Positions 42,279 through 53,540 of a DNA stretch of 64,000 nucleotides are shown here, piece by piece. This stretch comes from Vulcanimicrobiota bacterium (GTDB lineage: Bacteria > Vulcanimicrobiota > Xenobia > Xenobiales > QWHO01). How positions within the stretch are numbered: position 1 is the stretch's first letter; each line of letters opens with the position of its first letter. The position numbers and the translations under genes were made by a program. Under the pieces are notes generated by a model. That model did no database searches. It was not told the DNA's origin and saw nothing but the letters and a program-made list of their open reading frames with translations. Where the stretch lies: positions 10,671 to 74,670 of the forward strand of contig JBDHVW010000005.1 in the NCBI GenBank assembly GCA_039809865.1. Reading direction: 5' to 3'.

Positions 42279-43010
42279 ATGCGGCTTGCCGAGATGACTT
42301 ACACCGAGTTCGCCGGGCTCGATCGCTCGCGCTGCCTGGCCCTTTTGCCCGTGGGAGCGGTGGAGGCGCACGGGCCCCACCTGCCGCTCGGCACCGACAA
42401 CGTGATCGCCGACGCCATGGCGCGGGCAGCCGGCGCGGAGCTCCTCAAGCACGACTGGCTGCCCCTGGTCTTGCCCGGCCTGGACTTCACGGTGGCCGGC
42501 TTTGGTCGCAATTTTCCCGGCACGTTTTGCTTTCGCCCCGCGACGGTGCAGGCGTGGCTGCGGGACCTGATGGACGAGCTGGCGCGCTGGGGCGTGCGGG
42601 CGCTCGGGATCGCCAACGCGCATCTCGACCCGGGCCACCTCGCGTCGCTCCGCGAGGCGCTGGCCGACCCGCCGCTGCCGGTCGCCTTCCCCGACCTGAC
42701 GCGCCGCAAGCACGCCGCGCGGCTCACGGAGGAGTTCCAGAGCGGGGCCTGCCATGCCGGCCAGTATGAAGGCTCGGTCGTGCTGGCGGCCCGGCCCGAG
42801 CTGGTCCGGCTGGAAGCCGCCCGCTCTTTGCAAGACAACCCGCGCTCCCTGGTCGAGGCCATTCGCGCCGGCCAGCTCAGCTTCGAGGAAGCCGGCGGCC
42901 ACCACGCTTACTTTGGCTCGCCCAGAGGCATCAGCGCGTCCGAGGGCCATTCAACCATCGATATTCTGGGCGCCATCCTGGCCGAGGAGCTCCTCGCTCT
43001 TCTGAGCTGA
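42279..43010 (+). CDS. creatininase family amidohydrolase
   Basis: Starts at MRLAEMTYTEF. Family pattern LLPVGAVEAHGPHLPLGTDNVIADAM...ANAHLDPGHL...GQYEGSV. Confidence 0.75.
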   Translation: MRLAEMTYTEFAGLDRSRCLALLPVGAVEAHGPHLPLGTDNVIADAMARAAGAELLKHDWLPLVLPGLDFTVAGFGRNFPGTFCFRPATVQAWLRDLMDELARWGVRALGIANAHLDPGHLASLREALADPPLPVAFPDLTRRKHAARLTEEFQSGACHAGQYEGSVVLAARPELVRLEAARSLQDNPRSLVEAIRAGQLSFEEAGGHHAYFGSPRGISASEGHSTIDILGAILAEELLALLS

Positions 43011-43023
43011 CCGCCAACGAGGC

Positions 43024-43055
43024 AAAAAAAAGCGCCCCGCGTTCCGCGAGGCGCC
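43024..43055 (-). terminator. rho-independent terminator (for the minus-strand secreted protein gene ending at 43078)
   Basis: The plus strand reads AAAAAAAA-GCGCCCCGCG-TTCC-GCGAGGCGC, so on the minus strand the hairpin is followed by a U8 tract. Confidence 0.6.
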
Positions 43056-43077
43056 TTCTGCCCGAGACAGCGACTTC

Positions 43078-43677
43078 TTAGAAGCCGGTCTTGGGATTGA
43101 CGTTCCACTGGATGTTGTTGAACTTGCGCTCTTCCGTCACCTTGGAGCCGTCGACTTTCTGCGAGTGCACGATCGTGCCATCGTCGGTCGCCCAGACCTT
43201 GCAGCCGTTCGAGAAGGTGAACAGCGTGGTGGCCTGGCCCTTGTAGCTGTCGCCGGCGCTGACCTTGGGGGCGCTGCTGCCACAGTCCTTGATGATCAGG
43301 CCGAAAACGCTCTGGTAGAGGGAGGTGCCGGCCACATCTTTGTGGTCCAGGCTGCGCTTGATCTGGCCGCTGCCGACGCGGGCGACGACCTGGTTGGCGT
43401 TCTCAGAGCTGTTGAAAACGGTGACCGCACCCACGCGATCCTGGCTGCCCGGCAGCACCTTCGTGCGGACCGACAGCGGGTTGTTGATGCAGGCATACTC
43501 GAAATTGTACTTGCCTTTGGGGCCGACATACTCATAGGTGCAGGAATAATCCTTGGCTCCGGCCACCTTGGCTTTGACGGCATCCCAGGTCGTTGCGGCC
43601 TGACTCGTCGAGGCGTTGAGCAGAATAGCGCTCAGGACCCCCATGGCCATAGCGACGAACTTCGTGCGGAATTTCAT
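43078..43677 (-). CDS. secreted hypothetical protein (199 aa, Lys-rich, beta-rich)
   Basis: Signal peptide (MKFRTKFVAMAMGVLSAILLNASTSQA) and its own AGGAG RBS. Last gene of the tatD / tubulin-like / cyclase operon, followed by a terminator. Confidence 0.65.
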   Translation of the reverse strand: MKFRTKFVAMAMGVLSAILLNASTSQAATTWDAVKAKVAGAKDYSCTYEYVGPKGKYNFEYACINNPLSVRTKVLPGSQDRVGAVTVFNSSENANQVVARVGSGQIKRSLDHKDVAGTSLYQSVFGLIIKDCGSSAPKVSAGDSYKGQATTLFTFSNGCKVWATDDGTIVHSQKVDGSKVTEERKFNNIQWNVNPKTGF

Positions 43678-43719
43678 TCTGGTTTCTCCTAACTCCTTGG
43701 GAAAATGCCGGTCCGAGTT

Positions 43720-45276
43720 CTACGACGCGTTCGTAGATCCTTCGAACGGGTCGACCACGAAGATCTTGACGTCGTACTCGGGCCAATACTCTTCGCGGGC
43801 GACCACCGGTCTAACCGGCAAGCGACCCAGAGTGTTTTCGGTCAGGCAAATTTCCCGGGCTCCCGCCCCTTTTTGCACTTTGCCGGCCACGTCCAGCGTG
43901 TAATCGTAGAGGTTGCGGGTTTGGGACGCGTCGCCCAGGTCGCGCGTGAGCACCTTGCCGCTGTTCACGCCGATGCGCACCTCCAGGCCCATCTCCAGGC
44001 GGTTGTGACGGCGGTTGAAGGCGCCCAGGTGGAGCTGGATCTCCCGACAGCATTCCACCGCATCCTGGGCCGAGTCGAAGACCGCCATGGTGCCATCCCC
44101 GGCCGCGTCCTTGACGTGGCCTTTGTGGCGCCGCACCAGGTTGCCCACATACTCGTGATACTGCTGGAACGTGTAGGTCACGTTGACTTTGTCCTGATTC
44201 TGCTTCAAGCGGGTGGAGTCGACCACGTCCAGGCAGACCGCGGTGCATTCGCGGCCCTCCGAAACGGGCGCCGACACGCTCTCGGGCGCACCCACCAGCT
44301 CTTTGTACATCGCGTTGCGGATGCGGCAATTGCCGTCCTTGTCGGCTTTGATCAGCCCGATCAACTCGAGGCGCGCCAGACGAGGATTGGTCATGCGGTT
44401 GAACTTGATCTTCTCGCCCACCAGCACGCGGTCGAGCCAGGGACGCAGCTCGGGCTCGCTCTCCAGGCGGTGCACCACGTGGTCGAGGTTGTTGCAGTCG
44501 CTCATAATCTCGCGCACGGCGCGCGCGACCACCTCGGGGCCGCCGACCGGAATGCGCCAGCCGGCCAGCACGGAGCAAAGGCGCTGGGTCAGGTAGGGCT
44601 GACCTTCCGTCCAGCGATAGATCTCGTCGGGAACGTCCTCGGCGGTGGCGATTCCCAGGCGCTCGAGCAGCGTCACCAGCTTGCGCACGCCGTCGCGCGT
44701 CAGGTCGGTCATGCGCAGGGTCTTGGAGACGTTGAAAGGCGAGTTGGCCTGGTTCTTGATCAGGTCGCGGGGCGAGAACGTGCCGCAGAGGACGAAGGAC
44801 ATCCTGGCAAACTCGGGCTTGACCTGGCGATTGGAGAACACGTAGCGCACGTTGCCGAAGAACGCGTCGGTAAACTCCTCGGGCACCGAGCCGACCTCGT
44901 CGAGCATCAACACGACCCGTCCCAGGGCGCCGCCCAGCGCGCGCAGGTAGTTCAAGAACTCGAGGTGCGTCGCGGGCATTTCCGAGGGGCCGCCAATTTG
45001 CTCATGGATCGTGGTGGCGATGTAGCGGTACCACGACGGTAGCGGCTCCTCGCGGGCGGCCGAGAGGTCCACATAGGCGATCGCGTAGCCCTGGGGCGCC
45101 AGCTTGTGGCGAACCCGGTAGAGAAGGCTCGTCTTGCCCATCTGGCGCGGGCCGATGACGGTGACGAAGTCGCCCGCCGCCAGGTGCTCGGGCAACTTCT
45201 CGTCCTCGATCCGATCGCAGTAGGCGGCCGAGTCCGGCCGCAGATTCCCGCCCCAGTGAAACAGGTCAGCCTCCAT
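43720..45276 (-). CDS. AAA-like ATPase fused to class III adenylyl/guanylyl (nucleotidyl) cyclase domain
   Basis: 518 aa. The N-terminal domain has Walker A GPRQMGKTSLL and Walker B VLMLDEVGS. The C-terminal ~180 aa carry CHD cyclase motifs (AVCLDVVDSTRL...HKGHVKDAAGDGTMAVF...RIGVNSGKV). AAGGAG RBS; the start overlaps the upstream giant gene stop by 11 nt. Confidence 0.75.
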   Translation of the reverse strand: MEADLFHWGGNLRPDSAAYCDRIEDEKLPEHLAAGDFVTVIGPRQMGKTSLLYRVRHKLAPQGYAIAYVDLSAAREEPLPSWYRYIATTIHEQIGGPSEMPATHLEFLNYLRALGGALGRVVLMLDEVGSVPEEFTDAFFGNVRYVFSNRQVKPEFARMSFVLCGTFSPRDLIKNQANSPFNVSKTLRMTDLTRDGVRKLVTLLERLGIATAEDVPDEIYRWTEGQPYLTQRLCSVLAGWRIPVGGPEVVARAVREIMSDCNNLDHVVHRLESEPELRPWLDRVLVGEKIKFNRMTNPRLARLELIGLIKADKDGNCRIRNAMYKELVGAPESVSAPVSEGRECTAVCLDVVDSTRLKQNQDKVNVTYTFQQYHEYVGNLVRRHKGHVKDAAGDGTMAVFDSAQDAVECCREIQLHLGAFNRRHNRLEMGLEVRIGVNSGKVLTRDLGDASQTRNLYDYTLDVAGKVQKGAGAREICLTENTLGRLPVRPVVAREEYWPEYDVKIFVVDPFEGSTNAS

Positions 45277-48200
45277 TCGCCATCATCTCCTTGTAGAGGT
45301 CCACGCCCTCGCGAACATCCATCACCTGGGCCACCATCTCGGGGAAGGAGCGCACCGCCAGGTGGTAGCGTGGACCATGCCGCTCGAGCAAGCCATAGAG
45401 ACAGAGGTTGTCCAGGGACTCCACCAGCTCGGGCAGGCTCAGCTTGACGTCGTAATCGGCCTCCAGGCGTTTTCGTAAATCCTGGGCGGTGATCTCCTCG
45501 TCCGTCTCGAGGGTCAGCGAGGCGATCCGCTCGCGCATCCCGCCCGATCCCCACAGCGTTTCCAGGTATTCCTCGGCGAAGAGCTGGTCGGTGAGCACCT
45601 CGCGCAAGAGGTCGGTGGAGATCTGACGCGTCCGCTCACGGTTGAGGCGATCGACCAGCACGCTGCAGGCCCGCTGCACCAGGTTGGGATGCCCGGCGGA
45701 AACGTAAAGCAGCATCTCCAGCGCCGCCTGGCGGTCGTCGAAGCGAACCTCCATCTGCTCTAAGGGCTCCGTGATCAGGTTCGTGGCCTCTTCGGCGCTC
45801 AAAAAGCCCAGTTTCATGGCGTGGCTGAAATTGAAAAACGCGGAGTCGGCCTGGTGCAGCTTATGGTGCAGGGTGCGCTCGCCACAAAGGAGGAAGCTGG
45901 CCTTCCCCTCGGTGGCGGCCTGGCGGAACGAGCGCCCCAAGAACTCGGAGTTTTGCGGGTCCTGCGCCAGCATCAGGTCGATCTCGTCGAGGATGATCAG
46001 GGCCTGGCGGCCCTCGTGGCGGTGCTGGAGCTCCATCAGGATGGCCGGAAAGCTCATCTTGGGCTCCCAGTTGGGGAGGTGCTCGGCCGCCAGCGTCATC
46101 AGGAAGTCCGAGCCTTTGGAGAGCGCCTGGCAGTCGAGATAGAAGACGGGCCGGTCCTGCTTGCGCAGGGAGCTCAGCACCCGCTGCAGCACCGAGGTCT
46201 TGCCTACCCGCCGGGGCCCCACCAGGGCCACGTTGCTGTGATCGAGCCGGTAGTGGATCTCCTTGATCACGCCCTCGCGCCCGTAGAACATCGAGGCGGG
46301 CACCGGTCCCTCCGTCACGAAGGGCGACACCACCGTGAGATCGACCTGCTCGAGCACGCGCCGCACCAGTTGGGACAGGCGGTTCTTCTCGCGCATGATG
46401 GCCTTGAGGTCGTCGGGGGTGAGCGCAATGATGTCGTAACGCAGCAAGCTGGACAGTCCCTCGGACAAAAGGGCGCGGTTGGCCTCTTTGTCGCCGGTCA
46501 CGAGCAGGAACCCGAACCGGTTGTCCTGGCCGACCTGCTCGAGCAAATTGCGCAGGTTGGCCACATCTTGCGGACCCATCAGGGGCCGCAGGCATGCCAG
46601 GAAGGGAATGGTGGAGGGGATGCGGATGCGGAGCCCGTGGGTCTCCACCAGCCGGCCCCAGATCGTCCCCAGGCCGAGGGGGCGCCCGGGCGTGAAACCG
46701 AGCGTCTGGCAGCAGAAGTCGATGATCTCGCCGGCCGCGCGGGCGAAGACGTCCGGATCCATCTCCTGGCTTTCCACCAGGCGCCGGATATCCGCGTCGA
46801 GGTGGGAGAGGTCGCGGGCCGAAACCAGCTCCAGGCGCCCGGCGCCGGGGTGGAAAGCCAGGTTCTCGCCCGGGTGCGTGAGCTCATAGCGCTGCATGGC
46901 CCAGCGGCGATAGCCGGCCGGGATCTGGACCAGGTCGGCCTCGGAGAGGCTGGGCGCGTGCTTGAGATAGCTCGCCAGCAAGGGCTCCCATTCCTGCCAG
47001 GATTGCTCGAGCTGCAGGCGCAGACGGCGCGCGGCCTGATGCAGCCAGGGCTCGAGGTCCACCCCCAGCAGCATGCGCCCGGACCCGGCCATCCTGTCCT
47101 CGCTGAGCTCGAGCTGCTTGAGATAGCCCTCCACTCCTAACTCGTCCAGTTTCTCCTCCTGCCAGCGCGCCAGCGAGATGAGCAGCGTGCTCTGGGTGAG
47201 CAGACCCTCCTCGATGTCGTGGAAGAGGTAGAGGCACGAGATGACCGGCGTCATGTCGGGCCAGCGCAGGCTCTCCAGCGTGTCGCCGGCCTCGAGGTGG
47301 CCGAGCCGGACGGCTGCGGCCAGCGTTTCCCAGACCCGCTCGCGCTCGTAGTCGGAGGGGCGCGACAGAGCTCGCCAGCGCACGTCGGTGCGCGAATGAG
47401 GAGCGACTTTGGCGCCTTTCAGCTCGTTGAGGTAGGACGAATGCAGCGGACCGAGCTCGAGAGCCCGCAGCGGAAAGCCCCCCGTGACGCGCAAGAAGAC
47501 CATGCGCTCGCGGGTCAAGAACGGCACCACGCTCAGGGTCAACTCTTGCTGCAGCAAGAACTCGGCCAGCTTCTGATGGCCGGGCGTCTCCTCGCCGGGC
47601 GCGGCGTGGACGGCGACGAAGGCCACCTCCTGGCCGTGGCCCCAGCCTTCCAGCTGCTGGCGCGGCTGCAGCGCCGGCCGGGCGCGCAGGAAGAGCTGCT
47701 TGAGCTGCTCTTCGGCGGCCGCGCCGCGATAGCGCTGGAAGAACTGATCCACCGCGTCGATCCCCTCCAGGCCCCCCAGGTGGCGCGCCACCGCGCCCAC
47801 CAGGGCCGAGACGGCCTCGCGAGGCTTGTAGCGCGCCGGCAGCTCGATGGGCTCCACGTTGAGCTCGTCGCGCACCCAGCGCGGCGCTTTCTCGATCTTC
47901 TTGTCGCTGGCCCGGTCGGCCAGAAAGTCGTTGACCTCGGTGCGGCTCAGCAGCACCTCGCCGGGCACCGAGAAGACCTGGCCCATCGCCTGGTTGTGCT
48001 GGTCGTGGAAGAGCTTGCCCAGCGTGGTCAGGTATTCGAACAGGGTAGTGGTGTCCGAGCGGAACCTTTCGACCAGCAGCAGCAGCTCCTGAAAGGCGTT
48101 CCAGGCCTCGCGGTGGATGTGAAGCACGAGCCGGCTGGAGTAGAACCGCTCGATCAGCTCCAGGGCCGGGGGGGTGGTCGACAGGCCTTTCTTCTTCTTG

Positions 48201-49675
48201 AAGACGCTCTTGCTGGCCGCCGCCGTCTCGAGCTGGCGCAGCGTCTGATCCTTCTCCTGCAGCAGGCGCAGCTCGTCGAGCTCGAGCTGGGACATCTCCT
48301 CGTAGAGCGTGCGCAGGCGGTCGCCCACCGCGTCGGAGAGCTGCTCGAGGTAAGCGGCGTAGCCCAGAGTGCGCTCGGCCCGAAAAAAGGCGTTGACTTC
48401 GTCGGTGAGGGCGGCCGTGCCACGGGCCGCCAGCTCGGCCGCACGGGCGGAGACCTTGCCGAACAGCCCGTCGGGTTTGTTCTCTCCCAGAGCGCGCAGG
48501 ATGGCCTCTTCCAGCACCCGCAGTTTGGCGGCCAGCGCGGCGCCCTGAGGCGGCTTTCGCTCGAGCTGCTCGCGCACGGCGGTCACCTCGCGGTCGTGGC
48601 GGAAGGCGGTCGGGCCGCCGGCCGCGTTGGTCAGCTCCTCCACGAACACGTGACGGGCCAGGGCTTCGCGATGCAAGAACTCCAGCGCCACTTTGGGCGT
48701 CTTGTCGGGCTCCTCGGCACCCCGCGTAATGGCGGCCTGCCAGCGCTCGGTCAGCTGGTTGAGAATGCGTGAGGCCAGCGCGGTGCGGATCTCGTCGAAG
48801 GGCAGCGAAAGCGAGGACGACGCCTGGCTGAAGTAGGTCACCGGGTTGCCCCGCTCGTCGACCTGGTGGGAAAACGCGTTCTGGCGGCGCGCGACCTCGG
48901 TGGCCAGGGGCCGGTAGGGCTCCCACAGCGGCAATCCCAGGTAGGCGGTGACCTGGAGGCCAAGAGCCTCGCGCTCGTGGGCGTCCTCGAGGTCGCGGCA
49001 GCTGAACATCACCACCCGGTCGTACGGGGCCTGGTCGGTCTCAAACGTCAATCCGCCGGGAATGCTGATGCTGTAGGTCGTGTCGGGGGCCTGCCAGTGG
49101 TTGAGCTCGATCAGCGCGGCATAGGGATTCGAGGCCCCGCGTTCGTGGCGCGCGGGCCGGGCCGAGCTGACCAGCACGGCTTCCACGACGGCCTCGGAGC
49201 CGGGCCGCAGCTGCTCGATCAGACCGCGCAACAAGAAGGGCAGCTCGCACAGCAGCACGCCGCCCGTGCCGCCGGCCAGGGAGCCGACCAGCGTGACGTG
49301 CACGGCCCCGTCCTCCAGCACCTCCGTCAGCAACGGATTGAGCCAGGCCGCCAGCACGCTGTAGTTGGTCAGGAAGACGAGTCGCCCCAGCATGCGGATG
49401 GCGCCGCAGCCCGAGCGACGCAGCTCGGGGCGGACCCCCGGCGGAACCAGGCGCTCCCAGATACCGGCGTCCAGGAGCAGCTTCTCGGACGGCTGCAGGT
49501 TGAGCTGGTGGCTCAGAATTTGCTTGCCCGCCAGCATGCTCAGGCTGGCCTTGTCGCTGTCGATGGCGGCGCACACCATGCGGGAGGCGGCCAGCCGGCC
49601 CGACAGCACGTCGCAGGCCTGCCCTACCAGGGCGGTGCCCAGGCCACCCAGACCGAGAATGAGGTGACCGCTCAC
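45266..49675 (-). CDS. giant multidomain protein: N-terminal FtsZ/tubulin-like GTPase domain, long helical middle region, C-terminal AAA-like ATPase
   Basis: 1469 aa. The N-terminus has ILGLGGLGTALV (G-box 1), AIDSDKASL (compare FtsZ AVNTDAQAL) and SLAGGTGGV (compare the tubulin/FtsZ GGGTGSG T4 loop). The C-terminus has Walker A VGPRRVGKTSVL and Walker B ALIILDEIDLM, paralogous to the ATPase of the downstream cyclase gene. ATGA overlap with upstream tatD. Confidence 0.75.
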   Translation of the reverse strand: MSGHLILGLGGLGTALVGQACDVLSGRLAASRMVCAAIDSDKASLSMLAGKQILSHQLNLQPSEKLLLDAGIWERLVPPGVRPELRRSGCGAIRMLGRLVFLTNYSVLAAWLNPLLTEVLEDGAVHVTLVGSLAGGTGGVLLCELPFLLRGLIEQLRPGSEAVVEAVLVSSARPARHERGASNPYAALIELNHWQAPDTTYSISIPGGLTFETDQAPYDRVVMFSCRDLEDAHEREALGLQVTAYLGLPLWEPYRPLATEVARRQNAFSHQVDERGNPVTYFSQASSSLSLPFDEIRTALASRILNQLTERWQAAITRGAEEPDKTPKVALEFLHREALARHVFVEELTNAAGGPTAFRHDREVTAVREQLERKPPQGAALAAKLRVLEEAILRALGENKPDGLFGKVSARAAELAARGTAALTDEVNAFFRAERTLGYAAYLEQLSDAVGDRLRTLYEEMSQLELDELRLLQEKDQTLRQLETAAASKSVFKKKKGLSTTPPALELIERFYSSRLVLHIHREAWNAFQELLLLVERFRSDTTTLFEYLTTLGKLFHDQHNQAMGQVFSVPGEVLLSRTEVNDFLADRASDKKIEKAPRWVRDELNVEPIELPARYKPREAVSALVGAVARHLGGLEGIDAVDQFFQRYRGAAAEEQLKQLFLRARPALQPRQQLEGWGHGQEVAFVAVHAAPGEETPGHQKLAEFLLQQELTLSVVPFLTRERMVFLRVTGGFPLRALELGPLHSSYLNELKGAKVAPHSRTDVRWRALSRPSDYERERVWETLAAAVRLGHLEAGDTLESLRWPDMTPVISCLYLFHDIEEGLLTQSTLLISLARWQEEKLDELGVEGYLKQLELSEDRMAGSGRMLLGVDLEPWLHQAARRLRLQLEQSWQEWEPLLASYLKHAPSLSEADLVQIPAGYRRWAMQRYELTHPGENLAFHPGAGRLELVSARDLSHLDADIRRLVESQEMDPDVFARAAGEIIDFCCQTLGFTPGRPLGLGTIWGRLVETHGLRIRIPSTIPFLACLRPLMGPQDVANLRNLLEQVGQDNRFGFLLVTGDKEANRALLSEGLSSLLRYDIIALTPDDLKAIMREKNRLSQLVRRVLEQVDLTVVSPFVTEGPVPASMFYGREGVIKEIHYRLDHSNVALVGPRRVGKTSVLQRVLSSLRKQDRPVFYLDCQALSKGSDFLMTLAAEHLPNWEPKMSFPAILMELQHRHEGRQALIILDEIDLMLAQDPQNSEFLGRSFRQAATEGKASFLLCGERTLHHKLHQADSAFFNFSHAMKLGFLSAEEATNLITEPLEQMEVRFDDRQAALEMLLYVSAGHPNLVQRACSVLVDRLNRERTRQISTDLLREVLTDQLFAEEYLETLWGSGGMRERIASLTLETDEEITAQDLRKRLEADYDVKLSLPELVESLDNLCLYGLLERHGPRYHLAVRSFPEMVAQVMDVREGVDLYKEMMANGG

Positions 49676-50433
49676 AACGGGCCGAAGAGGGAGGCGGCGG
49701 CGGCGCTGGTGGCGCGGGCCACTTCTTCAGGGTCGAGCCCGCGCAGCTCGGCGACCTTGCGCGCCATCAGGGGCACGTAACCCGGCTCGTTGCGCTTGCC
49801 TCGGTAAGGAATCGGGGCGAGGTAGGGGCCGTCGGTCTCGAGCAGCAGGCGGTCGAGAGGGGCCTGCCGCGCCACTTCGTGCACTTCGTGCAGCTTGGGA
49901 AAGGTGACCATGCCGGTGACGCCCACGTAAAAACCGAGCTGCAGGAATTTCTGGGCCCAGTCCCAGCCGCCCGTGAAGCAATGGACCACGCCCCGAACCC
50001 CGCCCTGACGGCACTCTTCGTAGAGCGCCTCCTCGGCCTCGCGGCAGTGCAGGATTACGGGTTTGTCCACCTTTCGGGCCAGCTCGAATTGCTGGCGCAG
50101 GCAGCGGAACTGCTCCTCGGGCGTGGCGAAATCGTAGTGGAAGTCGAGCCCGATCTCGCCGATCGCGACGGCCTTGCCGGCCAGCTGCTCGAGCTCGGTC
50201 AGGCAGTCGGAGCTCCAGGCCTTCGCCTCGTGGGGGTGCACGCCCACGGCCGCCCGGATGCGGTCGTCGCGCTCGCTCATTCGCACGATCTGGCGCGCCG
50301 AATCCATTTGCGTGGCCGGGGCGATGACGCGTTCCACCCCCGCTTGCGTGGCGCGATCGAGCACGGCCTCCCAATCGGCCGAATAGGCCTCGGCATCCAG
50401 GTGAATATGGGTGTCGACCAGCACGGTCAGCAT
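49672..50433 (-). CDS. tatD: TatD family metal-dependent hydrolase/DNase
   Basis: About 253 aa from MLTVLVDTHIHLD. TatD motifs are present (VGVHPHEA; AIGEIGLD; ILHCREA; VHCFTGG; LLETDGPYL). Its stop overlaps the start of the giant gene. Confidence 0.85.
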   Translation of the reverse strand: MLTVLVDTHIHLDAEAYSADWEAVLDRATQAGVERVIAPATQMDSARQIVRMSERDDRIRAAVGVHPHEAKAWSSDCLTELEQLAGKAVAIGEIGLDFHYDFATPEEQFRCLRQQFELARKVDKPVILHCREAEEALYEECRQGGVRGVVHCFTGGWDWAQKFLQLGFYVGVTGMVTFPKLHEVHEVARQAPLDRLLLETDGPYLAPIPYRGKRNEPGYVPLMARKVAELRGLDPEEVARATSAAAASLFGPL

Positions 50434-50572
50434 GCTTCGGGTGTCTGCGAAGTTTTGCCTTTCCGGACGCCCCCGCCAGCCTCCCACACACCTGTTCGGA
50501 AGGTGCGAAGGAAATTCTTCAAGTCGGGAAGAATTTTCCTCGTCTGACGACTGGGAAAGGAGGAGGGATGTC

Positions 50573-50848
50573 ATGGGTCGGGCGGCTCGCGAGCATAGCT
50601 CGGCAGAACCGGTACGCCGTTTGCGGCGCAGCGTCGAGGGTTTCGAGAAGAAGACCCGGGCGGCGACTCCGCAGCGGTCCAAGACCCGTTCGGCCCGAGC
50701 CAAATCACGTCCCTCGAAGTCCCGAGCGTTGCCCTGGCGCCTTCTCCTGGTGCTGGGGCTGATCCTGATGGTGGGCTCCACCGTCTGGACGATCGTCCAC
50801 TCGCCAACGAAACGCCCCCCCTTATCCCATAGCAAATCGTCCCGTTAG
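50573..50848 (+). CDS. putative small basic protein with C-terminal transmembrane anchor
   Basis: 91-aa ORF (MGRAAREHSS...ALPWRLLLVLGLILMVGSTVWTIVHS...) preceded by a strong AAGGAGG RBS 9 nt upstream. Intergenic location between tatD and the amidase; unverified. Confidence 0.35.
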   Translation: MGRAAREHSSAEPVRRLRRSVEGFEKKTRAATPQRSKTRSARAKSRPSKSRALPWRLLLVLGLILMVGSTVWTIVHSPTKRPPLSHSKSSR

Positions 50849-50970
50849 GGGTTGAGAGTCGAGAGTTAAGAGTATCGCTGCGAAACTCTAAACTCTGAGC
50901 CCTCAATTCTCGACCGAACAGAGAAACACGATACCGGGGTTCCCTGTCTGATTCGCGGAAGGAGTGAAGG

Positions 50971-52752
50971 ATGAAGAAACTCCGCCTGTTTGCCCTGGCG
51001 GCGCTGCTGGCACTGTGTTTGCCCGTGGTCGCGCGCGCTCAGGATGAAGGCTCCGACCGGTGCGTCGTCACCCTCAAGGGGATGACCCGCCTGAATATCA
51101 AGCACTACGGCGGCAGCCTCGCGTTGCCGGCCCGCGCCACCAGCCTTCCCGACGATTTCCTGGTGGACGCCCGCTCTCCCGAGTTGGGCGAGCTGGGGCG
51201 CCCCTACGGCGCCCAGATCAGCTGGGACGGGAAGGCGCTGGTGTGCCGCAAGAACGGCCAGACCACCCGGCTGGCCCTCAATCAGGACCGCTATCCCGAT
51301 GACGCCACCGGCCGCCATCTCGACCTGGTCGCCCAGGAGCTCGACGGCGTGCCCCAGATCCCCCTCTCGATCCTCGAGGACATGTGCGGCGCCCGCCTCA
51401 CCGTGCAGGGCAACGACGCCTGGTTCGAGCCGCTGATCAAGTCGGTGCGCGTGGATGGCAAGAAGCTGCTCATCGACTCCACTCTGGCCGTGCGCTGCAA
51501 GACCTTTCGCTTGAAAGAGCCCGACCGCTACGTCATCGACATCGCCGGCGCCGTGCTGGACACCGGCTCCAACAAGCTCGAAGACCCCGACCTGGGCGTG
51601 GTGCGCCTGGGCCAGTTCACACTGGGCCCGGCGGTCAGCCGCATCGTCATCCCGACCACTCCGGGCGTCAACCTGCGCCCGACCAGCGGAGCCCCCGGCC
51701 AGCTGGCCTTCGCTCTCACGCTGCCCAGGTCGGCTCCGGTGGCCACCGCCGCCCCTGCGCCGGGCCAGTCCTTTCCGGGCGCCAAGATTACCTCGGTCGC
51801 GTTCGAGCCGATGGTGGGCGGACATCGCCTGATCGTCACCGCCGACGGCCCGGTGCAGTATGAGTGGCGTCGCTACAAGCAGCCCGACAACCGCTTCGTG
51901 CTGGACATCCCCAAGGCCGGCCTGGTTGGAGCCAAGCAAGACTTCGACGGCGACGGCGCCTTTCTGGCCAACGTCCGCGTCTCCCAGTTCTCGGCCGAGC
52001 CCGACGCCGTGGTGCGGGTGGTTGCCGAGCTCAATCGTCCCGCCCTCACCCGCATCACTCCGGGCGATGACGCCAACAGCTTCGTGCTCGAGATCATGGA
52101 CCAGGCTCCTATCGAGTACGGCCAGACCCAGGGTTACGGCGCCACCAGCTTTCCCAAGATCGGCGGCGGCGTCATCTGCATCGACCCGGGCCACGGCGGC
52201 TCGGATACCGGCGCCGTCAACCGCGCGCTGGGCATCTGCGAGGCCGACATCACGCTGGACATCTGCCTGCGGCTGGCCGAGATCCTCAAACGCGAGGGCT
52301 GGAACGTGGTGATGACCCGCACCGACGATCGCGATGTCTCCTGGGCCGGCTCCCCCGACGCCCAGGAGCTGGGCGCCCGCGTCAAGGTGGGCGACGACTA
52401 CGGCGCCGACCTCTTCGTGAGCGTGCACTGCAACAGCTCGGCCGGCTCCAGCGCCAACGGCACGTCCGTCTACTACTACAAGTCCTCCGACTACCTGCTG
52501 GCCCAGGAGCTGCACGGCAACATCGTCGCCGCCACCGGCCGGGCCAACCGCGGCATGCAGAAGAACCGCTTCTACGTGCTGGCCCACTCCAAGATCCCGT
52601 CGGTGCTGATCGAGACGGCCTTCATCTCCAACATGACCGAAGCCAGGCTGCTCAATACCCCCGAATTCCGCCAGGGCATCGCCGAGGGCATCGCGGTGGG
52701 TCTGCGCCAGTACGCCTCGCGCTACATGAACAAAGCCACCGCGAACCGTTGA
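50971..52752 (+). CDS. N-acetylmuramoyl-L-alanine amidase (Amidase_3, AmiC-like with N-terminal AMIN-like domains)
   Basis: Signal peptide (MKKLRLFALAALLALCLPVVARA). The C-terminal catalytic domain is ICIDPGHGGSDTGAV...DLFVSVHCNS...NRGMQKNRFYVLAHSKIPSVLIETAFISN. Confidence 0.85.
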   Translation: MKKLRLFALAALLALCLPVVARAQDEGSDRCVVTLKGMTRLNIKHYGGSLALPARATSLPDDFLVDARSPELGELGRPYGAQISWDGKALVCRKNGQTTRLALNQDRYPDDATGRHLDLVAQELDGVPQIPLSILEDMCGARLTVQGNDAWFEPLIKSVRVDGKKLLIDSTLAVRCKTFRLKEPDRYVIDIAGAVLDTGSNKLEDPDLGVVRLGQFTLGPAVSRIVIPTTPGVNLRPTSGAPGQLAFALTLPRSAPVATAAPAPGQSFPGAKITSVAFEPMVGGHRLIVTADGPVQYEWRRYKQPDNRFVLDIPKAGLVGAKQDFDGDGAFLANVRVSQFSAEPDAVVRVVAELNRPALTRITPGDDANSFVLEIMDQAPIEYGQTQGYGATSFPKIGGGVICIDPGHGGSDTGAVNRALGICEADITLDICLRLAEILKREGWNVVMTRTDDRDVSWAGSPDAQELGARVKVGDDYGADLFVSVHCNSSAGSSANGTSVYYYKSSDYLLAQELHGNIVAATGRANRGMQKNRFYVLAHSKIPSVLIETAFISNMTEARLLNTPEFRQGIAEGIAVGLRQYASRYMNKATANR

Positions 52753-53537
52753 CCCCGGTCCAGCAGGCCGCCCTGCTGGGGGTGATCCAGGGATTGACGG
52801 AGTTCCTGCCGGTCTCGAGCTCGGCCCACCTGCGGCTGGTGCCCGAGCTGGCCGGGTGGCCCTATCTGGGCAAGGGTTTCGACGTGGCTCTCCACGGCGG
52901 GACCCTGCTCGCTTTGATGGCCTACTTTCGGGCCGAGCTTCTCAGGTTGCTCCAGGCTCTGCTCCCCGGGCGCGAGCCGGACGTGGTGGCACGCCGCCTG
53001 CTGGCCCGCCTGGCGCTGGCCAGCGTGCCGGTGGCCACGGTGGGCTACCTGCTGGAGAAGTTCCTCGAGAGCCACTTCCAGAGCTCGCTCTCGATCGCGT
53101 TCTGGCTGGCGCTGGTGGGCGTCTTGATGCTGCTGGCGGAGCGCGGCCCCGAGCGCGCCGGGCCCGTCGGTCTGGGGCAGGCTCTGGCGGTGGGCTGCGC
53201 TCAGGTCCTGGCGCTGTTCCCGGGAGCTTCGCGCTCGGGAACGACCCTGGCGGCGGCTCGCTGGCTCGGCTTGGAGCGTCGCGAGGCGGCCCGGTTCTGT
53301 TTCCTGATGGGCTTCCCGGTCATCCTGGGCGCCACGGTCTACAAGTTGCTCAAGCTCGAGGGCGGTCCGCCCGAGCTGCTGCTGACCGGAATGGCCTGCG
53401 CTGCCCTGAGCGGGCTGGTCGCCATCCACCTCTGCCTGCGGGTGCTGCCCCGCTGGGGTCTGGCGCCGTTCGCGCTGTATCGAATCGCTCTGGCGGTCCT
53501 CCTGGTTGCGAGGTCGGCAGTTGACAGTTGGCAGTAA
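52749..53537 (+). CDS. uppP: undecaprenyl-diphosphatase (UppP/BacA)
   Basis: 262 aa starting at TTG with a 4-nt overlap with the amidase gene. Motifs GLTEFLPVSSSAHL and FPGASRSGTT (PGxSRSGxT). Confidence 0.85.
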   Translation: MTPVQQAALLGVIQGLTEFLPVSSSAHLRLVPELAGWPYLGKGFDVALHGGTLLALMAYFRAELLRLLQALLPGREPDVVARRLLARLALASVPVATVGYLLEKFLESHFQSSLSIAFWLALVGVLMLLAERGPERAGPVGLGQALAVGCAQVLALFPGASRSGTTLAAARWLGLERREAARFCFLMGFPVILGATVYKLLKLEGGPPELLLTGMACAALSGLVAIHLCLRVLPRWGLAPFALYRIALAVLLVARSAVDSWQ

Positions 53538-53540
53538 AGT

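What the first reader, a model, noticed from the sequence alone, without database searches (positions are those of the whole stretch)
45266..49675. 1469-aa protein with an FtsZ/tubulin-like GTPase N-terminus fused to a C-terminal AAA-like ATPase
Three hallmark FtsZ/tubulin elements are visible by eye in the first ~130 aa: ILGLGGLGTALV (compare GVGGGGxN), AIDSDKASL (compare AVNTDAQAL) and SLAGGTGGV (compare GGGTG(S/T)G). A ~900-aa predicted helical region follows (it includes a KKKKGLS patch), then an ATPase domain with Walker A VGPRRVGKTSVL and Walker B LIILDEIDLM. Tubulin-superfamily GTPases fused to P-loop ATPases are, to my knowledge, not a characterised architecture.
Basis: partly seen in the sequence, partly recalled or inferred. 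Interest (0 to 1): 0.75.

Follow-up and report, generated by a model that had tools for sequence, protein, structure and literature searches.

The report
Tubulin-like protein fused to STAND ATPase
A 1469-residue bacterial protein really does join a divergent tubulin/FtsZ-type domain to an NLR-like switch ATPase, and it is always made together with a second switch ATPase carrying a cyclase domain, giving an unstudied tubulin family (FtsZl1) its first link to a signalling partner.

Summary
The ORF is real.

- **Residues 1 to about 935.** This stretch is a complete FtsZl1 protein.
- **Residues about 878-1100.** This is a conserved alpha/beta module.
- **Residues 1101-1469.** This is a STAND/ORC-like ATPase with a winged helix.

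The next gene encodes an AAA_35 ATPase with a class III cyclase-like domain. It overlaps the big ORF by 11 nt in every Xenobia locus that has it.

The same tandem pair of ATPases occurs in Chloroflexota and Terriglobia. There the first gene has other N-termini and the second has other outputs (PP2C, TIR, GAF).

Inside class Xenobia (Eremiobacterota) the locus is syntenic. It diverges at about the rate of its housekeeping neighbours, and dN/dS is 0.13-0.29. One lineage has FtsZl1 alone in the same slot.

My best reading is a vertically inherited two-ATPase switch that couples a tubulin-like scaffold to cyclic-nucleotide output. An immune role is not excluded. I rate it a new variant of known kinds.

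The parts
45266..49675 (-). Gene A: the 1469-aa FtsZl1 / module X / STAND fusion protein (GTG start, TGA stop).
   Evidence: The start overlaps the TatD stop as GTGA.
48716..49675 (-). Tubulin/FtsZ-fold GTPase-like domain (aa 1-~320). It carries T1 GLGGLG (aa 8-13), IDSD (aa 38-41), T3-like GCGAIRMLGRL (aa 89-99), T4 AGGTGGV (aa 134-140) and the H5 motif SNPYAALIELNHW (aa 182-194).
46871..48715 (-). Remainder of the FtsZl1 protein (aa ~321-935). It comprises a helical, coiled-coil-like region, a basic patch KKKKGLS (48179-48199) and the FtsZl1 C-terminal region with the GGFPLRAL motif (aa 732-739).
   Evidence: Stand-alone Tubulin_2 proteins of ~1050-1130 aa (P0015-P0018 and others) align to profile positions ~190-934. 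Helices span aa 293-449 in the model. Residues 450-860 were not modelled.
46376..47044 (-). Module X (aa ~878-1100): a conserved alpha/beta module that precedes this type of ATPase in many unrelated architectures. Its second half (aa ~974-1095) has alpha-beta-beta-beta-alpha-beta-alpha-beta-alpha order and no D/ExK motif. The junction with the FtsZl1 part (aa 878-935) is ambiguous.
   Evidence: Profile hits to positions ~875-1091 occur in proteins with BNR/sortilin, caspase or CHAT-TPR N-termini. The model has pLDDT about 90. The same region is conserved at the N-terminus of the short A-type proteins. Its fold was not searched separately.
45269..46375 (-). STAND/ORC-like P-loop ATPase with helical lid and winged helix (aa 1101-1469). 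Motifs: FYGREGV (46268-46288), Walker A GPRRVGKTS (46187-46222), Walker B ILDEID (45971-46000) and GHPNLVQ (45674-45694).
   Evidence: Pfam AAA_22 at 8.5e-12, plus weak NACHT, AAA_16, ATPase_2 and AAA_35 hits. nSTAND1 is found in 38 of 48 relatives. AF2 pLDDT 91; Foldseek hits 2fna and 2qen with TM 0.65-0.67, then Orc1/Cdc6, RuvB, RFC, plant NLRs and Avs4. Invariant residues are listed.
43720..45276 (-). Gene B: the 518-aa partner. It has an AAA_35-type ATPase (aa 10-325; 44302-45249) and a class III cyclase-like domain (aa 343-486; 43819-44250).
   Evidence: Pfam AAA_35 at 2.8e-22 and Guanylate_cyc at 9.6e-13. PADLOC PycC at 8.9e-10, a partial match. The closest solved relative is the Ma1120 cyclase, E = 4e-9. 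Both metal-binding Asp and the Lys are invariant, but the canonical Asn/Arg region is replaced by YTLDLAGKVQK. The gene is present next to gene A in L004, L007-L010, L012-L014, L016 and L062.
45266..45276 (-). The 11-nt stop/start overlap ATGGAGGCTGA between gene A and gene B. An AAGGAG Shine-Dalgarno sequence lies 10 nt upstream, inside gene A.
   Evidence: The same -11 overlap occurs in all 9 other Xenobia loci that carry gene B.
49672..50433 (-). Upstream TatD/YchF-family hydrolase (253 aa from ATG 50433). Its stop overlaps the gene A start by 4 nt. I treat it as a probable housekeeping neighbour, not a core part of the system.
   Evidence: TIGR00010 at 247 bits against a cut-off of 206; QatD at only 83.5 against a cut-off of 230. 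The start site was corrected. TatD is adjacent in most Xenobia loci but absent in L008, L012 and L013.

Best explanation
The ORF (gene A) and the gene that overlaps its stop codon (gene B) encode a two-component, nucleotide-driven switch built from two related STAND-type ATPases.

**Gene A.** This is a complete FtsZl1 protein: a divergent tubulin/FtsZ-fold domain, a coiled coil and the FtsZl1 C-terminal region. It is fused through a conserved alpha/beta module to a STAND ATPase and winged helix.

**Gene B.** This is an AAA_35 ATPase carrying a class III cyclase-like domain.

**Proposed mechanism (inferred, not shown).**
1. The tubulin-like arm self-associates in a nucleotide-dependent way, or docks on a cellular structure.
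2. That raises the local concentration of the A ATPase modules.
3. A then co-oligomerises with B in an ATP-dependent way, as paired sensor/helper NLRs do.
4. The cyclase domains of B are brought into the dimers that class III cyclases need for activity, so a cyclic nucleotide is made.

**Biological role.** The locus is inherited vertically and diverges at about the rate of its housekeeping neighbours across class Xenobia. One lineage keeps only FtsZl1 in the same slot. I therefore read FtsZl1 as the constant cellular element. I read the STAND/cyclase pair as an added physiological signalling layer, not as a mobile anti-phage system.
For: **Shown: identity of the parts**
- Tubulin/FtsZ fold and FtsZl1 membership.
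- STAND/ORC-like ATPase with intact Walker A and B, GRExE and GHPNL motifs.

**Shown: A and B are coupled**
- The 11-nt overlap with an internal Shine-Dalgarno sequence is seen in the window.
- The identical overlap occurs in all 9 other Xenobia loci that have B.
- The pair also occurs with a 4-nt overlap in a divergent member in a different genomic context (P0066/L062).

**Shown: the ATPases are related and the cassette is general**
- The A and B ATPases hit each other by BLAST: 23.6% identity over 258 aa, E = 5e-9.
- The A-then-B cassette, with overlapping or closely adjacent genes, is found in 45 of 56 loci across Xenobia, Chloroflexota and Terriglobia.
- The C-terminus of B is a swappable output: SpoIIE/PP2C in 25, cyclase in 9, GAF in 3, TIR in 2 and HATPase_c in 2 of 41.
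- The N-terminus of A is swappable. Tubulin_2 occurs only in the 11 Xenobia sequences; others carry GAF, TPR or sortilin/BNR, or nothing recognisable.

**Shown: vertical inheritance and constraint**
- The order BacA, AMIN-amidase, (STAS), TatD, A, B, then HtrA or a ~200-aa gene is kept even where A is only 33-41% identical.
- Identity to the distant Xenobia loci: B 55-62%, A's ATPase 45-55%. Neighbours: BacA 39-51%, amidase 42-51%, TatD 47-58%.
- dN/dS is 0.13-0.29 in every domain.
- An unfused FtsZl1 occupies the same slot in another Xenobia lineage.

**From established knowledge**
- Class III cyclases are active only as dimers.
- STAND ATPases signal by nucleotide-dependent oligomerisation.
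Against: - No step of the mechanism has been demonstrated.
- The T4 signature is partly degenerate in this subclade (AGGTGGV or GGTASV against GGTGSG). No T7/synergy loop or FtsZ-type C-terminal domain could be mapped. GTP hydrolysis and polymerisation are therefore uncertain, as Makarova and Koonin already noted for FtsZl1 (PMC2875224).
- The cyclase domain lacks the canonical transition-state Asn/Arg. It may be inactive or have another specificity.
- No cNMP receptor is encoded nearby.
- One Xenobia clade (P0004-P0006) lost gene B but kept the fusion. A therefore has some function without B.
- Relatives of the cassette carry TIR, EAD2, VMAP, caspase and CHAT domains, which are typical of conflict systems.
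- Synteny within one class may simply reflect common descent.
Confidence: 0.4

Rival explanations
1. The pair is an NLR-like immune or conflict system. A senses an invader through the FtsZl1 arm or module X, for example a phage tubulin or another phage protein, and then oligomerises. B makes a cyclic-nucleotide alarm signal, as in Pycsar or CBASS-like logic. Alternatively, the tubulin arm polymerises as the effector, as Kaur et al. proposed for tubulin in the GTPase-centric conflict systems.
For: - Other versions of the same A/B cassette, or of its ATPase chassis, carry conflict-type domains. B carries TIR, or TIR plus EAD2 followed by an EAD2-VMAP gene (L021, L022). Chassis proteins carry caspase or CHAT at the N-terminus.
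- nSTAND1 was defined in such conflict systems (PMC8195603).
- FtsZl1-type tubulins were reinterpreted as parts of conflict systems (PMC7159879). cNMP cyclases are common effectors in those systems.
- B's cyclase domain hits the PADLOC PycC models (E = 8.9e-10).
- Structural neighbours of the A ATPase include plant resistosomes and Avs4.
- A TatD-family gene lies next door, and the Qat system uses a TatD nuclease.
Against: - Gene A hits no PADLOC model apart from a marginal PDC-S01 match (E = 0.0067).
- TatD passes the housekeeping TIGR00010 cut-off and falls far below the QatD cut-off. It is missing from some loci.
- The locus sits at a fixed chromosomal position among cell-envelope genes across a whole class. 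No mobile-element genes were seen in the annotated flanks.
- Divergence is equal to or lower than that of the housekeeping neighbours. dN/dS is 0.13-0.29, with no fast-evolving sensor part other than moderately faster FtsZl1 regions.
- The most common output in relatives is a PP2C phosphatase, which is a signalling domain.
- No cNMP-activated effector is adjacent.
Confidence: 0.3
2. The real output is the filament, not the nucleotide. FtsZl1 builds a lineage-specific cytoskeletal or membrane-associated structure. The fused STAND ATPase, together with B, acts as its built-in nucleator, assembly chaperone or disassembly switch. The structure may be linked to septal or cell-envelope processes.
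For: - FtsZl1 alone occupies the same slot in a sister Xenobia lineage, so FtsZl1 is the conserved element.
- One clade keeps FtsZl1-STAND without B.
- The neighbours are envelope and division-related genes: an AMIN-domain amidase, UppP/BacA and HtrA.
- Every characterised member of the tubulin/FtsZ superfamily forms filaments (discussion in PMC2875224).
- A conserved basic patch follows the coiled coil (aa 493-499). It could be a membrane or nucleic-acid contact.
Against: - The T7 loop and C-terminal domain that FtsZ needs for its polymerisation-coupled GTPase were not found.
- Neighbourhood within one class is weak functional evidence.
- This reading does not explain why the partner always carries a conserved cyclase-like domain, which is more conserved than the neighbouring genes.
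- I could not test whether canonical ftsZ is present in these genomes (one search covers only the fetched DNA).
Confidence: 0.2
3. The tubulin-like domain is a non-polymerising relic used only as a nucleotide- or ligand-binding sensor domain of the STAND protein. It would be equivalent to the GAF, TPR or beta-propeller domains found at the N-terminus of other A-type proteins.
For: - The N-terminal position of A is occupied by classic sensor domains in relatives: GAF, TPR and sortilin/BNR.
- T4 is degenerate in this subclade. T1 and T4 are largely lost in P0066.
- FtsZl1 lacks recognisable filament-forming elements.
Against: - The whole ~935-aa FtsZl1 protein is retained under purifying selection, including the coiled coil and C-terminal region, not only the nucleotide-binding domain.
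- Most GTP-contact motifs (T1, T3-like, most of T4, H5) are kept.
- The unfused orthologue functions alone at the same locus.
Confidence: 0.1

Closest known systems
FtsZl1 family (Pfam Tubulin_2, PF13809; Makarova and Koonin 2010, PMC2875224)
   Same: - The N-terminal domain passes the Pfam threshold.
- It carries the family motifs GxGGxG, xDxD, GxGxxRxxGRL, GGTGxx and NxYAALxELN.
- It aligns with FtsZ only as far as helix H5.
- It is followed by a coiled coil and the family's own C-terminal region, which is homologous to stand-alone members up to about aa 935.
   Different: - This protein carries an extra ~530 aa: module X plus a STAND ATPase and winged helix.
- The typical vWA, P-loop GTPase, kinase or OmpA operon partners are absent.
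- The partner here is an AAA_35-cyclase protein.
- The last glycine of the T4 signature is Val in this subclade.
STAND NTPases of the nSTAND1 / ATPase_2 (SSO1545, PAB2304) / ORC-Cdc6-like type
   Same: - It has Walker A and B, an upstream FxGRExE motif, a GxP-like GHPNLxQ motif, a helical lid and a winged helix.
- The best structural matches are 2fna and 2qen (TM 0.65-0.67).
- nSTAND1 is found in 38 of 48 relatives.
   Different: - The query itself scores below the Pfam nSTAND1 cut-off.
- There is no C-terminal repeat sensor (TPR, WD40 or LRR); the protein ends after the winged helix.
- The variable domain is N-terminal.
- It works in a fixed tandem with a second, related ATPase.
Paired sensor/helper NLRs (NAIP-NLRC4; plant paired NLRs). 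This is an analogy from general knowledge, not homology beyond the STAND fold.
   Same: - Two related STAND ATPases are encoded or act together.
- One carries the variable input domain (A) and the other the output domain (B).
- This suggests nucleated co-oligomerisation.
   Different: - No interaction between A and B has been shown.
- The outputs here are enzymatic signalling domains (cyclase, PP2C, TIR), not death-fold or pore-forming domains.
- The genes are bacterial and translationally coupled.
GTPase-centric (DO-GTPase / GAP1 / tubulin / HSP70) and other NTP-dependent conflict systems of Kaur, Burroughs, Iyer and Aravind 2020 (PMC7159879)
   Same: - They use FtsZl1-type tubulins fused to coiled coils.
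- cNMP cyclases, TIR, EADs and STAND NTPases are shared parts.
- The authors regard tubulin assemblies as analogues of STAND assemblies.
- A Chloroflexaceae version of the A/B cassette is linked to an EAD2-VMAP gene.
   Different: - No DO-GTPase, GAP1, HSP70, vWA or MoxR gene lies near the Xenobia loci.
- The term searches of that paper's main text did not turn up a tubulin-STAND fusion.
- The Xenobia locus behaves as a core, syntenic locus.
Pycsar pyrimidine cyclases (PycC), and class III cyclases fused to STAND ATPases in mycobacteria (Rv0386 type; from general knowledge)
   Same: - Gene B combines a class III cyclase-like domain with a STAND-like ATPase.
- The domain has partial PADLOC PycC hits and is similar to the Ma1120 cyclase.
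   Different: - No adjacent cNMP-sensing effector is present, so the Pycsar definition is not met.
- The cyclase is C-terminal to the ATPase.
- The canonical Asn/Arg pair is replaced.
- There is no TPR or LuxR part.

Membership tests
Tubulin/FtsZ superfamily (fold level) | Rossmann-like GTPase domain with tubulin/FtsZ topology | tested here: met
Tubulin/FtsZ superfamily (fold level) | Glycine-rich T1 loop and T4 signature GGGTG(S/T)G | tested here: inconclusive
   hhalign places GLGGLG on the FtsZ T1 loop (GGGGGN) and AGGTGGV on GGGTGTG. Five of seven signature positions are kept. The first and last Gly are Ala and Val, and close homologues have GGTASV. Nucleotide binding is plausible but unproven.
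Tubulin/FtsZ superfamily (fold level) | T7/synergy loop with catalytic acidic residue, and the C-terminal (GTPase-activating) domain | tested here: not met
Tubulin/FtsZ superfamily (fold level) | GTP-dependent polymerisation into protofilaments | not testable with these tools
   This needs biochemistry or imaging.
FtsZl1 (Pfam Tubulin_2, PF13809) | Match to the family model above the curated cut-off | tested here: met
   The score is 70 bits against a cut-off of 27, E = 2.9e-19, aa 87-308. More distant full-length homologues score 101-114 bits over the whole model.
FtsZl1 (Pfam Tubulin_2, PF13809) | Family-specific motifs and inserts between T1 and T4 | tested here: met
   GCGAIRMLGRL and SNPYAALIELNHW match the family consensus GAGxxRxxGRL and ANxYAALxELN. 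G8, G10, G13, D39, G89, R94, R98, G135, G136, T137, N183 and E190 are conserved at 90% or more in 64 members.
FtsZl1 (Pfam Tubulin_2, PF13809) | Coiled coil plus a family-specific C-terminal region after the GTPase domain | tested here: met
   Stand-alone Tubulin_2 proteins align to profile positions up to 749-934 (P0015-P0018, P0023, P0028, P0034, P0036, P0049, P0122). Residues 293-449 are all helical in the model. No dedicated coiled-coil predictor was run.
FtsZl1 (Pfam Tubulin_2, PF13809) | Operon with vWA-domain protein, divergent P-loop GTPase, kinase or OmpA-like genes | tested here: not met
   None of these is among the neighbours in the window or in 10 related loci. This is a typical context, not a strict requirement.
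STAND NTPases | P-loop NTPase with Walker A and Walker B (hhhhDE) | tested here: met
   GPRRVGKTS and LIILDEID are present. G1153, G1158, K1159, S1161, D1230, E1231 and D1233 are invariant in 48 A-type proteins.
STAND NTPases | Upstream hhGRExE motif, GxP-type motif in the helical lid, and a winged-helix domain after the ATPase | tested here: met
   F1130 and R1133 are invariant and G1132 and E1134 nearly so. H1329, P1330, N1331, L1332 and Q1334 are invariant. The model shows ATPase, helical lid and winged helix, with ~370 columns aligned to SSO1545, PAB2304 and Orc1/Cdc6. The motif definitions come from my knowledge of Leipe et al. 2004.
STAND NTPases | Match to a curated STAND family model (nSTAND1, NACHT or NB-ARC) above the cut-off | tested here: inconclusive
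   For the query, NACHT scores 21.3 against a cut-off of 26.7, and nSTAND1 is not reported. nSTAND1 is precomputed on P0002, P0003, P0005 and P0006. It is found at E <= 1e-4 in 38 of 48 A-type relatives.
Pycsar (cyclase plus cNMP-activated effector) | PycC-type cyclase adjacent to an effector with a cNMP-binding domain | tested here: not met
   There are only partial PycC hits on gene B (best E = 8.9e-10, profile positions 44-152 of 226). The downstream 199-aa gene has a signal-peptide-like N-terminus and no Pfam, NCBIfam or PADLOC hit. No cNMP-binding domain is present in the related loci.
Qat defence system | QatD-type TatD nuclease together with QatA, QatB and QatC | tested here: not met
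   The TatD gene scores 83.5 bits against the QatD cut-off of 230, but 247 against the housekeeping TIGR00010 cut-off of 206. No QatABC hits were found.
Avs/AVAST and other catalogued STAND defence systems | Match of the ATPase protein to a PADLOC defence model | tested here: not met
   The only hit is a marginal PDC-S01 match, E = 0.0067 over 43 residues around the P-loop. Avs4 appears only as a distant structural neighbour at rank 48.
GTPase-centric tubulin conflict systems (Kaur et al. 2020) | DO-GTPase and GAP1 core, with tubulin and HSP70 genes | tested here: not met
   No GTPase, HSP70, FNIII or vWA genes occur in the window neighbourhood or in the related loci.

The most novel reading that the evidence does not exclude
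A tubulin-superfamily polymer and an NLR-like STAND oligomer are wired into one machine. GTP-dependent assembly of the FtsZl1 arms would nucleate, or be nucleated by, ATP-dependent A/B STAND co-oligomerisation. Filament state would then be converted directly into a cyclic-nucleotide signal. This would be a core, class-wide 'cytoskeleton-to-second-messenger' transducer in Xenobia. It would be the first functional handle on FtsZl1 and the first case of a tubulin fold serving as the polymerising input or amplifier of a STAND switch.
Probability: 0.2. Interest if true: 0.85.

Novelty: new variant of a known kind. Interest (0 to 1): 0.62.

Why it matters
**A lead on an uncharacterised tubulin family.** FtsZl1 is the most divergent branch of the tubulin/FtsZ superfamily. 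In the papers I read it has no experimentally shown function; what exists are two rival bioinformatic guesses from 2010 and 2020, membrane remodelling and biological conflict. A natural fusion counts as evidence of the 'Rosetta stone' kind. Here it ties FtsZl1 physically to a STAND switch ATPase. Through a translationally coupled partner, it also ties FtsZl1 to a cyclase-like output.

**A natural experiment at one locus.** The same chromosomal slot holds three states within one bacterial class:
- FtsZl1 alone;
- the fusion with its partner;
- the fusion without its partner.

**A more general cassette.** The work also exposes a widespread two-ATPase cassette with swappable input and output domains. 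I could not find it described.

**Directly testable questions.**
- Does FtsZl1 bind GTP and polymerise?
- Does the ATPase control that?
- Does assembly switch on the cyclase?

Tried and rejected
**Searches that led nowhere**
- A word-indexed search with the N-terminal 420 aa alone returned nothing, not even the protein itself. I judged this a prefilter failure. I replaced it with the exhaustive profile search.
- A sequence search of the whole protein against PDB chains gave only chance hits.
- Literature searches gave no paper on the fusion or the cassette. The terms tried were 'FtsZl-1'; FtsZ-like with STAND, anti-phage and vWA; 'tubulin-like' with 'STAND NTPase'; AAA_35/PF14516; and Xenobia with FtsZ.
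- The promoter and terminator scan of 42500-51500 was at background level.
- The exact-sequence look-up of the window protein found no record. The contig for P0015 was too short to show context.
- A tblastn search with E. coli FtsZ against the window and all fetched loci found nothing. This says nothing about the rest of the genomes.

**Ideas considered and rejected**
- *Assembly chimera.* The same architecture occurs in many independent assemblies, including contigs of up to 695 kb.
- *TatD as a QatD-like effector.* It passes the housekeeping model, is far below the QatD cut-off and is missing from some loci.
- *The minus-strand ORFs 50866-52587 and 52722-54752 as genes.* They have no significant hits. 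They are antisense shadows of the amidase, BacA and PHP genes seen in the syntenic loci.
- *Module X as an active PD-(D/E)xK nuclease.* The strand order fits, but no acidic/Lys motif is conserved. Its fold was not searched on its own.

Full report
**1. Observation**

The ORF at 45266..49675 is real, but it is read on the minus strand. It starts with GTG at 49675 and ends with TGA at 45268-45266, giving 1469 aa.

The region has about 67% G+C. Long spurious ORFs are therefore common on other frames and strands. This one is validated in three ways:
- Full-length homologues of 61-80% identity exist.
- More distant homologues of 23-41% identity come from independent NCBI, JGI and Logan assemblies, on contigs of up to 695 kb.
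- dN/dS is 0.13-0.29 in each of its four parts against homologues of 79% and 61% identity.

**2. The N-terminus has a tubulin/FtsZ fold and belongs to FtsZl1**

Pfam Tubulin_2 (PF13809) matches aa 87-308 at 70 bits, against a cut-off of 27. Tubulin_2 is the FtsZ-like 1 (FtsZl1) family of Makarova and Koonin 2010 (PMC2875224; PMC9871819).

A profile of 64 family members was aligned with E. coli FtsZ by hhalign (probability 76%, E = 2e-5). The correspondences are:
- GLGGLG with the T1 loop;
- AIDSD with AVNTD;
- GCGAIR with the T3 loop GAGANP;
- AGGTGGV with the T4 signature GGGTGTG.

The alignment stops at helix H5. That is where the 2010 paper also lost the alignment.

An AlphaFold2 model of aa 1-450, built on that alignment, has mean pLDDT 88.4.
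- All 50 Foldseek PDB hits listed are CetZ, FtsZ or TubZ (E 1e-7 to 2e-5).

Three caveats remain:
- In this subclade the last Gly of the T4 signature is Val, and close homologues have GGTASV.
- No T7 loop or FtsZ-type C-terminal domain could be mapped.
- GTP hydrolysis and polymerisation remain open.

**3. The middle region is not one helical linker**

An exhaustive profile search with aa 1-1097 against 1.84 billion representatives gave 646 hits.
- Stand-alone Tubulin_2 proteins of about 1000-1130 aa align to positions up to about 930. Residues 1 to about 935 are therefore a complete FtsZl1 protein: GTPase-like domain, coiled-coil-like helices and the family's own C-terminal region.
- A different set of proteins matches only positions about 875-1091. 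In those proteins this 'module X' sits directly before an AAA_22/nSTAND1 ATPase.
- Module X follows quite different N-termini there: BNR/sortilin propellers, a caspase domain, or CHAT plus TPR.

In the model of aa 860-1469 (pLDDT 91.1), the second half of module X has alpha-beta-beta-beta-alpha-beta-alpha-beta-alpha order. No conserved acidic/Lys motif is present. I did not fold-search it separately.

**4. The C-terminus is a STAND/ORC-like ATPase**

The following are conserved across 48 related proteins:
- Walker A (GPRRVGKTS);
- Walker B (ILDEID);
- an upstream FxGRExE motif;
- a GHPNLxQ motif.

The model's best structural matches are the archaeal ATPases SSO1545 (2fna) and PAB2304 (2qen), with target-normalised TM 0.65-0.67 over about 370 columns. 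Next come Orc1/Cdc6, RuvB and RFC, then plant NLR resistosomes and Avs4.

Pfam nSTAND1 is found in 38 of 48 relatives and on four close homologues. The query itself stays below the curated STAND cut-offs.

**5. The protein is half of a conserved gene pair**

The next gene (43720-45276, minus strand, 518 aa) encodes an AAA_35 ATPase (E = 2.8e-22) and a class III cyclase-like domain (E = 9.6e-13).
- Its ATG lies 11 nt before the stop codon of the big ORF (ATGGAGGCTGA). An AAGGAG sequence lies 10 nt upstream.
- The same 11-nt overlap is found in all nine other Xenobia loci that carry the gene.
- A very divergent member (P0066, 23% identity) in a different genomic context has the same partner with a 4-nt overlap.

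Across orthologues the partner keeps both metal-binding Asp residues and the substrate Lys. The canonical Asn/Arg region is replaced by an invariant YTLDLAGKVQK. The closest solved relative is the Ma1120 adenylyl cyclase (E = 4e-9, N-terminal half only). PADLOC PycC models match partially.

**6. The pair is one variant of a wider two-ATPase cassette**

Among 56 distinct loci, 45 have an A-type ATPase gene directly followed by a B-type ATPase gene. The loci come from one representative genome per species plus the look-ups. Most pairs have a stop/start overlap of 4, 11 or 14 nt. They occur in Xenobia, Chloroflexota and a Terriglobia MAG.

The two ATPases hit each other by BLAST (23.6% identity over 258 aa, E = 5e-9).

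| Position | Domain found | Count |
|---|---|---|
| C-terminus of B (41 scanned) | SpoIIE/PP2C | 25 |
| | cyclase (all Xenobia) | 9 |
| | GAF | 3 |
| | TIR | 2 |
| | HATPase_c | 2 |
| | EAD2 | 1 |
| N-terminus of A (48 scanned) | Tubulin_2 (all Xenobia) | 11 |
| | GAF | 2 |
| | TPR | 1 |
| | sortilin/BNR | 1 |
| | none recognised (proteins of ~500 aa: module X half plus ATPase) | remainder |

One Chloroflexaceae version has B with TIR and EAD2, followed by an EAD2-VMAP gene. That is a hallmark of the conflict systems of Kaur et al. 2020.

A second, distant Tubulin_2 plus AAA_22 fusion (P0108, 1435 aa) has a different downstream gene. The tubulin-ATPase architecture is therefore rare but not unique to one clade.

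**7. Distribution and evolution**

Full-length members come from MAGs labelled Candidatus Xenobia, UBP9 and Eremiobacteraeota. Some carry evidently loose labels such as Burkholderiales or Armatimonadetes. Xenobia is a class of Vulcanimicrobiota, also called Eremiobacterota.

The gene order is kept even where protein A is only 33-41% identical. It runs BacA/UppP, AMIN-amidase, sometimes STAS, TatD, A, B, then HtrA or a ~200-aa secreted-looking protein.

Identity between the window and the distant Xenobia loci:

| Protein or part | Identity (%) |
|---|---|
| BacA | 39-51 |
| Amidase | 42-51 |
| TatD | 47-58 |
| B | 55-62 |
| A: ATPase | 45-55 |
| A: module X | 41-48 |
| A: FtsZ-like domain | 27-36 |
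| A: coiled-coil/C-terminal part | 25-35 |

The pair evolves about as fast as its housekeeping neighbours. The FtsZl1 part evolves faster.

The same slot exists in three states:
- the fusion plus B, as in the window and most lineages;
- the fusion without B, in the P0004-P0006 clade;
- FtsZl1 alone, 1128 aa, between TatD and HtrA (P0017).

A similar unfused protein is annotated in Candidatus Bruticola, which is also a member of Xenobia.

**8. Mechanism**

*What is shown:* the identity of the domains, the translational coupling of A and B, the modular nature of the cassette, and vertical inheritance under purifying selection.

*What is inferred:* A and B form an ATP-dependent hetero-oligomer, by analogy with paired sensor/helper NLRs. 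The FtsZl1 arm supplies nucleotide-dependent self-association or docking. Oligomerisation brings B's cyclase domains into the dimers that class III cyclases need.

I prefer a physiological signalling role attached to a lineage-specific FtsZl1 structure (confidence 0.4). The reasons are the fixed locus, the housekeeping-like rates, the retention of FtsZl1 alone in one lineage, and the predominance of signalling outputs in relatives.

The rivals are:
- **An NLR-like immune system (0.3).** It is supported by the TIR, EAD2, VMAP, caspase and CHAT relatives, and by Kaur et al.'s view of tubulin and cyclases in conflict systems.
- **A filament machine whose output is the polymer itself (0.2).**
- **A non-polymerising tubulin relic used as a sensor domain (0.1).**

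**9. Comparison with what is known, and novelty**

By the tests above the protein is a member of FtsZl1 and of the STAND/AAA+ ATPases. It does not meet the definitions of Pycsar, Qat, Avs or the DO-GTPase/tubulin/HSP70 systems.

I found no description of a tubulin-STAND fusion or of the A/B cassette in the papers I could search. Databases call these proteins hypothetical.

I rate it a new variant of known kinds, with interest 0.62. It does not overturn anything. It gives FtsZl1, a tubulin branch with no experimental characterisation in the papers I read, a concrete and testable partner and output.

Noticed in passing
L064:8001-11387 and L065 (same arrangement); compare window 45266-50433: An unfused FtsZl1 (P0017, 1128 aa; its 90% cluster has 41 members) sits in the same syntenic slot, in the order AMIN-amidase, STAS, TatD, FtsZl1, HtrA. 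It has no STAND part and no cyclase gene. Its TatD and amidase are as distant from the window as those of the deepest fused lineages. The direction of change, gain or loss of the STAND/cyclase part, is unresolved.
   Followed up: partly
L066:8001-12308 (P0108): This is a second, distantly related Tubulin_2 plus AAA_22 fusion (1435 aa). Its ATPase is 27% identical to the query. It has no cyclase partner and is followed by a 271-aa ORF of unknown function with a 14-nt overlap. The tubulin-ATPase architecture therefore occurs in more than one lineage.
   Followed up: partly
L017-L061, e.g. L029:9707-13532, L022:8552-13293, L021:4683-10683: A widespread cassette of two tandem, related ATPases occurs in Chloroflexota and Terriglobia. 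Gene A is module X plus an nSTAND1-like ATPase. Gene B is an AAA_35/ATPase_2 ATPase plus an output domain, and the genes usually overlap by 4 or 14 nt. B most often carries a SpoIIE/PP2C phosphatase, and sometimes TIR, GAF, HATPase_c or EAD2. I found no description of this cassette.
   Followed up: partly
window 43819-44250 (-), cyclase-like domain of gene B: The class III cyclase-like domain keeps both metal-binding Asp and the Lys. The canonical Asn/Arg segment is replaced by YTLDLAGKVQK, invariant in six orthologues. It could be active with unusual chemistry or specificity, or it could be a nucleotide sensor.
   Followed up: partly
window 46376-46755 (-), aa ~974-1100 of the big ORF: The second half of module X has a strand and helix order like a restriction-endonuclease (PD-(D/E)xK) core, but no conserved catalytic residues. 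The same domain forms the N-terminus of the short (~500 aa) A-type ATPases.
   Followed up: no
window 48179-48199 (-), aa 493-499: The KKKKGLS patch lies in a poorly conserved linker after the coiled coil. A basic R/K-rich motif (roughly LxRxFxRK) recurs at this place in most full-length homologues. It is a possible membrane or nucleic-acid contact.
   Followed up: no
window 49672-50835 (-): The mechanical TatD ORF (387 aa from TTG 50835) is over-extended. Homologues and the Pfam match indicate a start at ATG 50433 (253 aa, MLTVLVDTHIHLD...). It scores as a housekeeping YchF/TatD hydrolase, not as QatD.
   Followed up: yes
window 50866-52587 (-) and 52722-54752 (-): These long minus-strand ORFs (573 and 676 aa) have no significant family hits. 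They are antisense shadows of the plus-strand genes for the AMIN-amidase (50971-52752), BacA/UppP (52749-53537) and a PHP-domain protein (53541-54854), as the syntenic loci show.
   Followed up: yes
window 43078-43677 (-): This 199-aa protein has a signal-peptide-like N-terminus and no family hit. It is conserved directly downstream of the system in the closer Xenobia lineages (62-82% identity). In the deeper lineages HtrA takes its place.
   Followed up: partly
P0040 (1646 aa), P0074, P0117, P0130: Other FtsZl1 fusions turned up in the profile search. One combines Tubulin_2, Macro and a C-terminal protein kinase. Three have an N-terminal protein kinase followed by Tubulin_2. FtsZl1 is repeatedly fused to signalling enzymes.
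   Followed up: no
L008-L010 and L064, upstream of TatD or of gene A: A small STAS-domain protein (anti-sigma-antagonist type) is encoded just upstream in the deeper Xenobia lineages. The commonest output of the related cassettes is a SpoIIE/PP2C phosphatase, the enzyme class that acts on STAS proteins. This may be coincidence.
   Followed up: no
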